The position numbers were made by a program. Below are positions 43,361-46,300 of a stretch of DNA of 64,000 nucleotides, piece by piece. The first letter of the stretch is position 1, and each line of letters opens with the position of its first letter. Where the stretch lies: assembly GCF_054482595.1 (NCBI RefSeq), contig NZ_CM137008.1. The stretch is one strand, 5' to 3'.

Positions 43361-46300
43361 GTCATCCTCTCAGACCAGCTAGGGATCGTCGCCTTGGTGA
43401 GCCGTTACCCCACCAACAAGCTAATCCCATCTGGGCACATCCGATGGCAAGAGGCCCGAAGGTCCCCCTCTTTGGTCTTGCGACGTTATGCGGTATTAGC
43501 TACCGTTTCCAGTAGTTATCCCCCTCCATCAGGCAGTTTCCCAGACATTACTCACCCGTCCGCCACTCGTCAGCAAAGAAGCAAGCTTCTTCCTGTTACC
43601 GTTCGACTTGCATGTGTTAGGCCTGCCGCCAGCGTTCAATCTGAGCCATGATCAAACTCTTCAATTTAAAAGTTTGATGCTCAAAGAATTAAACTTCGTA
43701 ATGAATTACGTGTTCACTCTTGAGACTTGGTATTCATTTTTCGTCTTGCGACGTTAAGAATCCGTATCTTCGAGTGCCCACACAGATTGTCTGATAAATT
43801 GTTAAAGAGCAGTTGCGACGCGGCTTTCAGCTCACTGTCGCGAGGTGGCGTATATTACGCTTTCCTCTTTCAGAGTCAACCCTGAATTTCAGGATTTTTC
43901 TCTTCAACCGAACTGGCTGTTTGTGTGAAGTGATTCACATCCGCCGTGTCGATGGAGGCGCATTATAGGGAGTCGGCTCAGGAAGACAAGCGGAAAAATG
44001 CATTTTTATTTCAATCGCTCATCTTTTAATCATTGCGCCGGTTTTTGCTGCTTTTTTATCGCTTGCGGCAGGTCTGCCAGGCTATTTAACACCCAATCTG
44101 CCGCGTTTTCTGCTTCAGGTGTAATAGGTTTACCCGTACGCACCAGCACTTTTGTTCCCACGTTCGCCGCAACCGCTGCCTGCATATCTTCTAATTTATC
44201 GCCCACCATATAAGAAGCGGCCATATCAATATGCAAATAATCGCGTGCTGACAAAAGCATCCCCGGATGTGGTTTGCGGCAATCGCAGACCTGGCGAAAC
44301 TCTTCAACACTACCCTGCGGATGATGCGGGCAATAATAGATACCATCCAGATCGACATCTCGGTCCGCCAGCGACCAGTCCATCCACTCGGTCAGCGTTT
44401 CAAACTGTGCTTCGGTAAATTTACCGCGAGCAATGCCAGACTGGTTGGTTACTACCACCAGCGCAAAGCCCATTTTTTTTAGCTCGCGCATGGCGTCAAT
44501 AACACCGTCGATAAATTCAAAGTTGTCGATCTCATGGACATAGCCGTGATCGACATTAATAGTGCCGTCACGGTCAAGAAAAATTGCGGGTACGCTCTTC
44601 GCCACCTTTTATAGCTCCTTAATAAGGCATGTGACGCTAGTATCGCATGTTTCGACCTGCAAGAAAGTGCTCTTCGCATAAACCTGATTGATTTAGACGT
44701 CTGGATGCCTTAACATCCATTTCATTGACGGCGTTGCCCGTTTCAGGCATTCGAGATGCCACGACTAACTTAATGACGATAATAAATAATCAATGATAAA
44801 ACTTTCGAATATCACCAAAGTGTTCCACCAGGGCACCCGCATCATCCAGGCGTTGAACAACGTCAGCCTGCATGTGCCAGCTGGACAAATTTATGGCGTT
44901 ATCGGTGCCTCAGGCGCGGGTAAGAGTACGCTTATACGTTGTGTAAACCTGCTGGAGCGCCCAACCGAGGGTAGCGTGCTGGTCGATGGCCAGGAACTGA
45001 CCACGCTGTCAGAATCCGAGTTGACCAAAGCTCGTCGCCAGATTGGTATGATTTTCCAGCATTTTAACCTGCTCTCTTCGCGTACTGTTTTTGGCAACGT
45101 GGCTCTGCCGCTGGAGCTGGACAATACACCGAAAGACGAGATCAAACGTCGCGTGACGGAATTGCTGTCATTGGTTGGTCTTGGCGATAAGCATGATAGC
45201 TACCCGTCGAATCTTTCCGGTGGGCAGAAACAACGTGTGGCGATTGCCCGTGCATTAGCCAGCAATCCCAAAGTATTGCTGTGTGATGAAGCCACCAGCG
45301 CGCTGGACCCGGCAACGACACGTTCTATTCTCGAACTGCTGAAAGACATCAACCGCCGTCTGGGTTTGACGATTCTGTTGATCACCCACGAAATGGACGT
45401 TGTGAAGCGTATTTGTGATTGCGTGGCGGTCATCAGCAATGGCGAACTAATCGAGCAGGACACGGTAAGTGAAGTGTTCTCACATCCGAAAACGCCGCTG
45501 GCGCAGAAGTTTATTCAGTCAACCCTGCATCTGGATATCCCGGAAGATTACCAGGAACGTCTGCAAGCGGAGCCATTCACTGACTGCGTGCCGATGCTGC
45601 GTCTGGAGTTTACCGGTCAATCGGTCGATGCCCCACTGCTTTCTGAAACCGCGCGTCGTTTCAACGTCAACAACAACATTATTAGCGCGCAGATGGATTA
45701 CGCCGGTGGCGTGAAGTTCGGCATCATGCTGACTGAAATGCACGGCACACAACAAGATACGCAAGCCGCCATTGCCTGGCTGCAGGAACACCATGTAAAA
45801 GTAGAGGTACTGGGTTATGTCTGAGCCGATGATGTGGCTGCTGGTTCGTGGCGTATGGGAAACGCTGGCAATGACCTTCGTATCCGGATTTTTTGGGTTT
45901 GTGATTGGTCTGCCGGTTGGCGTCCTGCTTTATGTCACGCGTCCGGGGCAAATTATTGCTAACGCGAAGCTGTATCGTACCGTTTCTGCGATTGTGAACA
46001 TTTTCCGTTCCATCCCGTTCATTATCTTGCTGGTATGGATGATTCCGTTTACCCGCGTTATTGTCGGTACATCGATTGGTTTGCAGGCAGCAATTGTTCC
46101 GTTAACCGTTGGTGCAGCACCGTTTATTGCCCGTATGGTCGAGAACGCTCTGCTGGAGATCCCAACCGGGTTAATTGAAGCTTCCCGCGCAATGGGTGCC
46201 ACGCCAATGCAGATCGTCCGTAAAGTGCTGTTACCGGAAGCGTTGCCGGGTCTGGTGAATGCGGCAACTATCACCCTGATTACCCTGGTCGGTTATTCCG

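What the first reader, a model, noticed from the sequence alone, without database searches (positions are those of the whole stretch)
43668..44029. rrnH leader and tandem P1/P2 promoters
Both rrn promoters are recognisable on the minus strand with 16 bp spacers and GC-rich discriminators (P1: TTGTCT/TATAAT/GCGCC; P2: TTGACT/TAATAT), with an AT-rich UP-element region running toward gmhB. This is a conserved, well-characterised architecture and serves mainly as an internal check on the coordinate calls.
Basis: partly seen in the sequence, partly recalled or inferred. Interest (0 to 1): 0.15.

Follow-up and report, generated by a model that had tools for sequence, protein, structure and literature searches.

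The report
E. coli rrnH promoters and leader

Summary
Confirmed and already known. Window 43668-44029 (minus strand) is exactly the 362-nt gap between the gmhB stop codon (TGA, 44032-44030) and the mature 5' end of 16S rRNA (43667). The operon is rrnH by synteny: metQIN-gmhB-16S-tRNAIle-tRNAAla-23S-5S-tRNAAsp-dkgB.

- **P1:** TTGTCT (43989-43984), 16-bp spacer, TATAAT (43967-43962), discriminator GCGCCTCC. The start is inferred at A 43953.
- **P2:** TTGACT (43879-43874), 16-bp spacer, TAATAT (43857-43852).

The region aligns with K-12 MG1655 rrnH at 359/362 positions with no indels, and every promoter element is identical. The P1 -10 plus GCGCC and the P2 -35 are invariant in all seven K-12 operons.

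- **Upstream of P1:** an 81% A+T UP-element stretch (44013-43993) and a FIS-like site centred at -71 that overlaps the gmhB stop codon.
- **Leader:** boxB hairpin, boxA (43811-43799), a boxC-like motif and the 5' strand of the RNase III stem.

The only peculiarities are two minor-allele SNPs, each found in about 1-2% of E. coli genomes, both outside the core elements. Interest is very low.

The parts
43668..44029 (-). Complete gmhB-16S intergenic region (362 nt): rrnH promoters plus 5' leader
   Evidence: gmhB ORF ends at 44030. 16S is 42126-43667. 359/362 identical to K-12 223409-223770 with no indels.
44017..44031 (-). FIS-like site GATTAAAAGATGAGC centred at -71 from P1 +1 (equivalent to rrnB FIS site I); overlaps the gmhB stop codon
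   Evidence: Degenerate FIS-consensus score 9.6/10. Such scores occur at 5e-4 per position in the window. G and C 15 bp apart are kept at this column in all seven operons. Binding was not tested here.
44080..44094 (-). FIS-like site GGGTGTTAAATAGCC centred at -134, inside the gmhB coding sequence
   Evidence: Score 10/10. Prediction only.
44119..44133 (-). Weaker FIS-like site centred at -173, inside gmhB
   Evidence: Score 8.2/10. This score is common by chance (1.2% of positions), so the site is tentative.
43993..44013 (-). P1 UP element (-60..-40), TGAAATAAAAATGCATTTTTC, 81% A+T
   Evidence: Position defined as in rrnB P1 (PMC7822876).
43984..43989 (-). P1 -35 hexamer TTGTCT
   Evidence: Identical in K-12 rrnH and in six diverse E. 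coli strains.
43962..43967 (-). P1 -10 hexamer TATAAT (16-bp spacer)
   Evidence: Invariant in all seven K-12 operons.
43953..43961 (-). P1 discriminator GCGCCTCC (43961-43954) and inferred start site A (43953), 286 nt before mature 16S
   Evidence: The start is placed 9 nt after the -10 by homology with rrnB P1 (PMC7822876). The aligned base is G only in rrnD; from my own knowledge, not checked here, rrnD P1 initiates with GTP. Not mapped experimentally here.
43874..43879 (-). P2 -35 hexamer TTGACT
   Evidence: TTGACTCTG is invariant in all seven operons.
43852..43857 (-). P2 -10 hexamer TAATAT (16-bp spacer), 110 bp downstream of the P1 -10
   Evidence: TAATAT is shared with rrnD and rrnE; TATTAT is in rrnA/B/C/G.
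43844..43845 (-). Inferred P2 start (C), uncertain by 1 nt
   Evidence: Inference from alignment with rrnB P2 and my own recollection that rrnB P2 starts with C about 7 nt after the -10. Not verified in a held paper.
43815..43841 (-). boxB-type hairpin GCGACAGTGAGCTGAAAGCCGCGTCGC just upstream of boxA
   Evidence: Predicted in the cofold structure. Some strains carry the rrnE-type variant GCGACAGTGCGCTAAAGCGCGTCGC, which still can pair.
43799..43811 (-). boxA antitermination element TGCTCTTTAACAA
   Evidence: Exact match. Invariant in all seven operons and in the Yersinia-derived Rfam consensus.
43777..43784 (-). boxC-like motif TGTGTGGG
   Evidence: Invariant in all seven operons.
43755..43814 (-). 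5' strand of the 16S RNase III processing stem
   Evidence: Pairs with 42121-42068 at -67.5 kcal/mol, against -27.4 +/- 3.7 (minimum -43.4) for 200 shuffled leaders.
42068..42121 (-). 3' strand of the 16S RNase III processing stem (spacer between 16S and tRNA-Ile)
42126..43667 (-). 16S rRNA gene (rrsH) transcribed from P1/P2
   Evidence: Rfam SSU, 1576.7 bits. 4 differences from K-12 rrsH, and it carries the rrsH-type variants at 1002-1038.

Best explanation
This is the control region of the Escherichia coli rrnH ribosomal RNA operon.

Two tandem sigma-70 promoters sit 110 bp apart and drive the operon 16S-tRNAIle-tRNAAla-23S-5S-tRNAAsp.

**P1** is the strong, growth-rate-regulated promoter. 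By homology with rrnB P1:
- the A+T-rich UP element (-60..-40) is contacted by the RNA polymerase alpha C-terminal domains;
- FIS bound at about -71 and further upstream activates, and these sites run into the 3' end of gmhB;
- output therefore tracks initiating ATP concentration and ppGpp/DksA.

**P2** supplies basal transcription at low growth rate.

**The transcribed leader** carries boxB-boxA-boxC, which load the Nus-factor antitermination complex. It also carries the 5' half of a long duplex with the 16S 3' trailer, which RNase III cuts to release pre-16S.

Shown here: sequence elements, spacing, conservation, synteny and the leader-trailer complementarity. Inferred from the rrnB paradigm: exact start sites, protein binding and regulation.
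For: - **Operon and synteny.** rRNA and tRNA gene order on the minus strand. The same locus is annotated gmhB / 16S in thousands of RefSeq genomes and flanked by metN and dkgB.
- **Promoter hexamers.** Both promoters have 16-bp spacers.
- **Match to K-12.** 359/362 identity and no indels against K-12 rrnH.
- **Paralogue table.** The P1 -10 plus GCGCC, the P2 -35 and boxA are invariant across all seven K-12 operons. boxA lies 144 nt before 16S in every operon.
- **Strain sampling.** Core elements are invariant in six diverse E. coli strains, while flanking positions vary.
- **UP and FIS.** UP stretch is 81% A+T, and a FIS-like site is centred at exactly -71.
- **RNase III stem.** -67.5 kcal/mol against -27.4 +/- 3.7 for shuffles.
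- **Definition of the promoter class.** UP -60..-40, G+C discriminator -8..-1, start site 9 nt after the -10, ATP as initiating nucleotide (PMC7822876).
- **Literature on rrnH.** Tandem P1/P2, UP, FIS and H-NS at the rrnH promoter fragment (PMC4696680).
- **Cross-genus support.** The Yersinia-derived Rfam model Ysr197 aligns over P1, P2 and boxA with E = 1e-36.
Against: Nothing contradicts it; what follows are limits of the evidence.

- Transcription start sites were not mapped, and P2 +1 is uncertain by 1 nt.
- FIS, alpha-CTD and Nus-factor binding are inferred.
- The simple FIS scan is permissive at lower scores (1.2% of positions score >= 8).
- The primary paper on the seven P1 promoters (Hirvonen et al. 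2001) could not be read.
- The window differs from most E. coli at two positions, -62 of P1 and 43914; their effect is unknown.
Confidence: 0.97

Rival explanations
1. The region belongs to, or is a gene-conversion chimera with, another rrn operon (for example rrnE or rrnD) rather than being authentic rrnH.
For: From the P1 -10 through P2, the window is nearly identical to K-12 rrnE and very similar to rrnD. Some E. coli strains carry an rrnE-type boxB hairpin at the rrnH locus, so conversion between these operons does occur.
Against: The UP element, the -35 (TTGTCT) and everything upstream are rrnH-specific, and the 88-bp extended P1 is single-copy in nearly all genomes (median 1 place per genome). 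The flanks are gmhB and dkgB, and the tRNA set is Ile/Ala plus a distal Asp. The boxB hairpin is the K-12 rrnH type. The 16S carries the rrsH-specific variants at 1002-1038.
Confidence: 0.02
2. The stretch encodes a free-standing small RNA of the Rfam Ysr197 family rather than, or in addition to, a promoter/leader.
For: Rfam RF02849 (Ysr197) matches 43789-44036 on the minus strand, full model length, 143.6 bits, E about 1e-36.
Against: The score is below the family's gathering threshold of 167. The model consensus itself contains the P1 -35/-10/discriminator, the P2 -35/-10 and boxA, and it begins upstream of the P1 start. It therefore describes rrn promoter DNA plus leader, not a discrete transcript. 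Many consensus pairs are non-canonical in the alignment. Nothing in that region reaches threshold in the gathering search.
Confidence: 0.01
3. The hexamer matches are chance resemblances and the real promoters lie elsewhere.
For: Consensus scans give false positives: 2.4 +/- 1.6 hits are expected in this 2-kb region.
Against: The two hits are on the rRNA strand and 110 bp apart. Both have 16-bp spacers. They align column for column with the experimentally defined rrnB P1 fragment. They are invariant in seven paralogues and in sampled strains while their neighbours vary.
Confidence: 0.005

Closest known systems
E. coli K-12 MG1655 rrnH upstream region (NC_000913.3 223409-223770; rrsH P1/P2)
   Same: Same locus and length (362 nt), 359/362 identical with no indels. 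All promoter hexamers, spacers, discriminators, the UP element, boxA, the boxB hairpin and the RNase III stem strand are identical.
   Different: Three substitutions.
- 44015: A here, G in K-12 (-62 of P1, between FIS site I and the UP element).
- 43914: A here, G in K-12 (between P1 and P2).
- 43697: G here, A in K-12. Here K-12 rrnH is the odd one among the operons.

The first two are minor alleles: the exact sequence occurs in 104 of 5,423 and 74 of 5,424 genomes.
rrnB P1/P2, the experimental paradigm for rRNA promoters
   Same: Same architecture: UP element at -60..-40, 16-bp spacer, TATAAT, GCGCC-type discriminator, A at the position 9 nt after the -10, P2 -35 TTGACT, and boxA 144 nt before 16S.
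   Different: - The -35 is TTGTCT, not TTGTCA.
- The discriminator is GCGCCTCC, not GCGCCACC.
- The UP sequence differs.
- The P1-P2 distance is 110 bp rather than 119 bp.
- The P2 -10 is TAATAT rather than TATTAT.
- The P1 leader is 286 nt rather than 292 nt.
- In one reporter study rrnH was the weakest of the seven promoters (PMC4696680).
rrnE and rrnD promoter-leader class
   Same: Share the segment from the P1 -10 to boxA, including the CCTGAAATTCAGG palindrome next to the P2 -35 and the TAATAT -10.
   Different: The -35 hexamers (TTGCGG, TTGTGC), UP elements and upstream FIS regions differ. rrnD has G at the inferred start.
Rfam RF02849 Ysr197 (Yersinia sRNA 197)
   Same: The model consensus aligns across P1, P2, the boxB region and boxA (E about 1e-36).
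   Different: The score of 143.6 is below the gathering threshold of 167. The family appears to describe the Yersinia rrn promoter/leader rather than an independent sRNA, so this is resemblance by common rrn ancestry and not membership of an sRNA family.

Membership tests
E. coli rrn P1 promoter class (rrnB P1 paradigm) | Sigma-70 -35 and -10 hexamers with a 16-bp spacer, on the rRNA strand upstream of 16S | tested here: met
   TTGTCT-16-TATAAT at 43989..43962. The -10 is invariant in all seven operons.
E. coli rrn P1 promoter class (rrnB P1 paradigm) | G+C-rich discriminator at -8..-1 | tested here: met
   GCGCCTCC, 7/8 G+C. Feature definition from PMC7822876.
E. coli rrn P1 promoter class (rrnB P1 paradigm) | A+T-rich UP element at -60..-40 | tested here: met
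   TGAAATAAAAATGCATTTTTC, 81% A+T. Alpha-CTD contact was not tested.
E. coli rrn P1 promoter class (rrnB P1 paradigm) | Transcription starts 9 nt downstream of the -10 | not testable with these tools
   An A lies at that position (43953) and aligns with the rrnB P1 start. No 5'-end data were available.
E. coli rrn P1 promoter class (rrnB P1 paradigm) | FIS sites upstream of the UP element (site I near -71) | tested here: inconclusive
   A FIS-like 15-mer is centred at exactly -71, with others at -134 and -173, but the scan is a crude consensus. Gel shifts on the rrnH fragment are reported in PMC4696680.
E. coli rrn P1 promoter class (rrnB P1 paradigm) | Regulation by ppGpp/DksA and initiating NTP concentration | not testable with these tools
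   Inferred from the discriminator and start-site geometry (PMC7822876).
rrn P2 promoter | A second sigma-70 promoter about 110-120 bp downstream of P1 with -35 TTGACT | tested here: met
   TTGACT-16-TAATAT at 43879..43852, 110 bp after P1. About 120 bp is stated in PMC4696680.
rrnH operon identity | Located between gmhB and dkgB; Ile/Ala spacer tRNAs; distal tRNA-Asp | tested here: met
rrn antitermination leader (boxB-boxA-boxC) | boxA TGCTCTTTAACAA preceded by a hairpin and followed by a G/T-rich boxC | tested here: met
   Exact boxA at 43811-43799, hairpin at 43841-43815, TGTGTGGG at 43784-43777. NusB/NusE binding was not tested.
16S RNase III processing stem | Extended complementarity between the 5' leader and the 3' trailer of 16S | tested here: met
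   -67.5 kcal/mol duplex against -27.4 +/- 3.7 for shuffles. Cleavage was not tested.
Rfam RF02849 Ysr197 | Score at or above the family's gathering threshold (167 bits) | tested here: not met
   143.6 bits.

The most novel reading that the evidence does not exclude
The window's lineage carries two rare substitutions in the rrnH control region. One is A for G at -62 of P1 (44015), at the junction of FIS site I and the distal UP subsite. The other is A for G at 43914, about 69 bp upstream of the P2 start. They might measurably change rrnH output in this lineage. Because rrnH encodes the variant rrsH 16S, this could shift the share of rrsH ribosomes. Nothing here tests that. Both positions lie outside the core elements, and -62 is A in rrnD and rrnG.
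Probability: 0.05. Interest if true: 0.2.

Novelty: already known. Interest (0 to 1): 0.04.

Why it matters
It matters only as a calibration point. Biologically this is the well-studied rrnH promoter/leader, and nothing new follows from it.

Tried and rejected
- **Rfam at gathering thresholds.** Nothing was found inside the intergenic region. The permissive search found only Ysr197, below threshold. I read that as the Yersinia rrn promoter/leader modelled as an "sRNA", not as a separate gene.
- **Primary literature not held.** I tried to read Hirvonen et al. 2001, the paper on the seven P1 promoters. I also tried a dRNA-seq start-site paper. Neither is held, so exact FIS-site positions for rrnH and mapped start sites could not be cited. 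A text search for "rrnH P1", "rrnH P2", "rrsHp1" or "rrsHp2" found only one preprint, and it gave no coordinates.
- **Alternatives considered and rejected.** A different or chimeric operon was rejected on flanks and operon-specific sequence. Chance hexamers were rejected on conservation.
- **ORFs.** ORFs on either strand of the leader are mechanical only and were not pursued.
- **Large scans not run.** I did not scan the viral, metagenome or genome-contig collections, because the question was settled by the E. coli genome set and the paralogues.

Full report
**Observation**

- **Promoter scan.** It finds TTGTCT-16 bp-TATAAT at 43989..43962 (10 of 12 consensus matches) and TTGACT-16 bp-TAATAT at 43879..43852 (9 of 12). 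Six promoter-like sites were found in the 2-kb region, against 2.4 +/- 1.6 in shuffles.
- **Discriminators.** The bases after the P1 -10 are GCGCCTCC, then A. Those after the P2 -10 are ACGCCACC.
- **UP region.** The stretch 44013-43993 (TGAAATAAAAATGCATTTTTC) is 81% A+T.
- **Coordinates.** They are exactly the intergenic region. The gmhB ORF, including its TGA stop, occupies 44030-44605. Rfam places 16S rRNA at 42126-43667.

**Identity of the locus**

- **Gene order.** Downstream on the same strand lie tRNA-Ile(GAU), tRNA-Ala(UGC), 23S, 5S and tRNA-Asp(GUC).
- **Presence in E. coli.** An 801-nt query spanning the 3' part of gmhB, the spacer and the start of 16S matches 5,425 of 5,426 complete E. 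coli genomes. Thirteen are 100% identical, and all hits shown are annotated gmhB / 16S rRNA.
- **Synteny.** In K-12 MG1655 the same arrangement is metN-gmhB-rrsH-ileV-alaV-rrlH-rrfH-aspU-dkgB. A 100%-identical strain shows the same synteny over 25 kb.

This is rrnH.

Aligning the window with the K-12 rrnH upstream region gives no indels and 359/362 identical bases in the spacer. The three differences are:

| Window position | Window | K-12 | Location |
|---|---|---|---|
| 44015 | A | G | -62 relative to the inferred P1 start |
| 43914 | A | G | between P1 and P2 |
| 43697 | G | A | 30 nt before mature 16S |

None touches a -35, -10, discriminator, UP element or boxA.

**Paralogues and strains**

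I aligned the window against all seven K-12 operons and tabulated the elements.

- TATAATGCGCC of P1, TTGACTCTG of P2 and everything from boxA to 16S are invariant.
- boxA starts 144 nt before 16S in every operon.
- rrnH groups with rrnD and rrnE: P2 -10 TAATAT, P1-P2 distance 109-110 bp. rrnA/B/C/G have TATTAT and 118-119 bp.
- The K-12 rrnB row reproduces the published rrnB P1 fragment used for cryo-EM. That paper defines the class by a UP element at -60..-40, a G+C-rich discriminator at -8..-1, a start site nine bases after the -10, and ATP as initiating nucleotide (PMC7822876).
- By this homology the rrnH P1 start is the A at 43953, 286 nt before 16S.
- At the same column rrnD has G. This fits my recollection (own knowledge, not checked here) that rrnD P1 initiates with GTP.
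- The P2 start (C at 43845 or 43844) rests on alignment plus my own recollection of rrnB P2. It is uncertain by one base.
- In six diverse E. coli strains the core elements of both promoters are invariant. Neighbouring positions vary: -63, -62, -56, -39, one P1 spacer base, and the boxB loop.

**Upstream activation**

A crude FIS-consensus scan finds a 15-mer (GATTAAAAGATGAGC, 44031-44017) centred at exactly -71. That is the position of FIS site I in rrnB P1 (own knowledge). It also finds sites at -134 and, more weakly, at -173.

Scores as high as the first two occur at about 5e-4 per position in the window. The weaker score is common by chance.

The -71 site overlaps the gmhB stop codon and the others lie inside gmhB. 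Only 40 bp separate the stop codon from the P1 -35.

Maeda et al. report several points about the rrnH promoter fragment (PMC4696680):

- FIS gel shifts on the rrnH fragment match the number of sites reported earlier.
- H-NS binds at rrnH.
- rrnH was the weakest of the seven promoters in their reporter system.

**Leader**

- **boxA:** TGCTCTTTAACAA at 43811-43799.
- **boxB-type hairpin:** 43841-43815, just upstream of boxA.
- **boxC-like motif:** TGTGTGGG at 43784-43777, just downstream of boxA.
- **RNase III stem:** leader 43814-43755 pairs with the 16S trailer 42121-42068 at -67.5 kcal/mol. Shuffled leaders give -27.4 +/- 3.7, minimum -43.4.

**Other database signals**

No Rfam family reaches threshold in the spacer. 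With permissive settings RF02849 "Ysr197" matches 43789-44036 at 143.6 bits, below its gathering score of 167, with E about 1e-36. The model consensus visibly contains P1, P2 and boxA and starts upstream of the P1 start site. I therefore read it as the Yersinia rrn promoter/leader catalogued as an sRNA. It serves as incidental evidence that the architecture is conserved across genera.

**Peculiarities of this window**

- The exact 88-bp extended P1 (FIS site I to +10) occurs in only 104 of 5,423 genomes. Most genomes have G at -62.
- The exact 61-bp stretch around 43914 occurs in 74 of 5,424 genomes.

These are lineage markers of unknown, probably negligible, effect. Position -62 is also A in rrnD and rrnG.

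**Verdict**

The feature is already known and its interest is very low.

Noticed in passing
window 43789-44036 (-): Rfam RF02849 'Ysr197' (Yersinia sRNA 197) aligns full-length over the rrnH P1 and P2 promoters and boxA (143.6 bits, below GA 167). The family consensus contains the promoter hexamers and begins upstream of the P1 start, so the family looks like an rrn promoter/leader catalogued as an sRNA.
   Followed up: partly
window 44015 and 43914 (-): Two minor-allele SNPs relative to most E. coli: A at -62 of P1 (exact 88-bp context in 104 of 5,423 genomes) and A between P1 and P2 (exact 61-bp context in 74 of 5,424 genomes). They mark a small lineage that includes strains XH990 and O157:H16 Santai.
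   Followed up: partly
window 43881-43893 and 43847-43861: Two short palindromes frame P2. CCTGAAATTCAGG abuts the P2 -35, and GCGTAATATACGC encloses the P2 -10. The terminator scan flagged both on the + strand. They are present in rrnH, rrnD and rrnE but not in rrnA/B/C/G. No function is assigned here.
   Followed up: partly
window 43990-44032 (-): Only 40 bp separate the gmhB stop codon from the P1 -35, and no terminator-like site was found on the minus strand. gmhB transcription therefore presumably reads into the rrnH promoter region. The FIS-like site at -71 overlaps the stop codon.
   Followed up: no
window 42126-43667 (-), 16S positions 1002-1038 and 250-273: The 16S carries the same variants at positions 1002-1038 that distinguish K-12 rrsH from rrsB. 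The rrsH variant allele is discussed in PMC6312700. It also has three differences from both K-12 genes at positions 250, 253 and 273.
   Followed up: partly
window about 39946-39956 (-), within 23S: A cluster of seven substitutions within 11 nt relative to K-12 rrlH (operon positions 4074-4084). It looks like a helix variant or a gene-conversion patch.
   Followed up: no
window 41687-41795 (-): Rfam StyR-44 (122.9 bits) lies in the spacer immediately upstream of 23S. This is a usual feature of enterobacterial rrn operons.
   Followed up: no
L011 and L013 (E. coli O111:H8 7-32 9A; Z1322HEC0001), boxB hairpin region: Some strains carry the rrnE-type boxB hairpin (GCGACAGTGCGCTAAAGCGCGTCGC) at the rrnH locus. 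This suggests gene conversion between rrn leaders, with pairing preserved.
   Followed up: no
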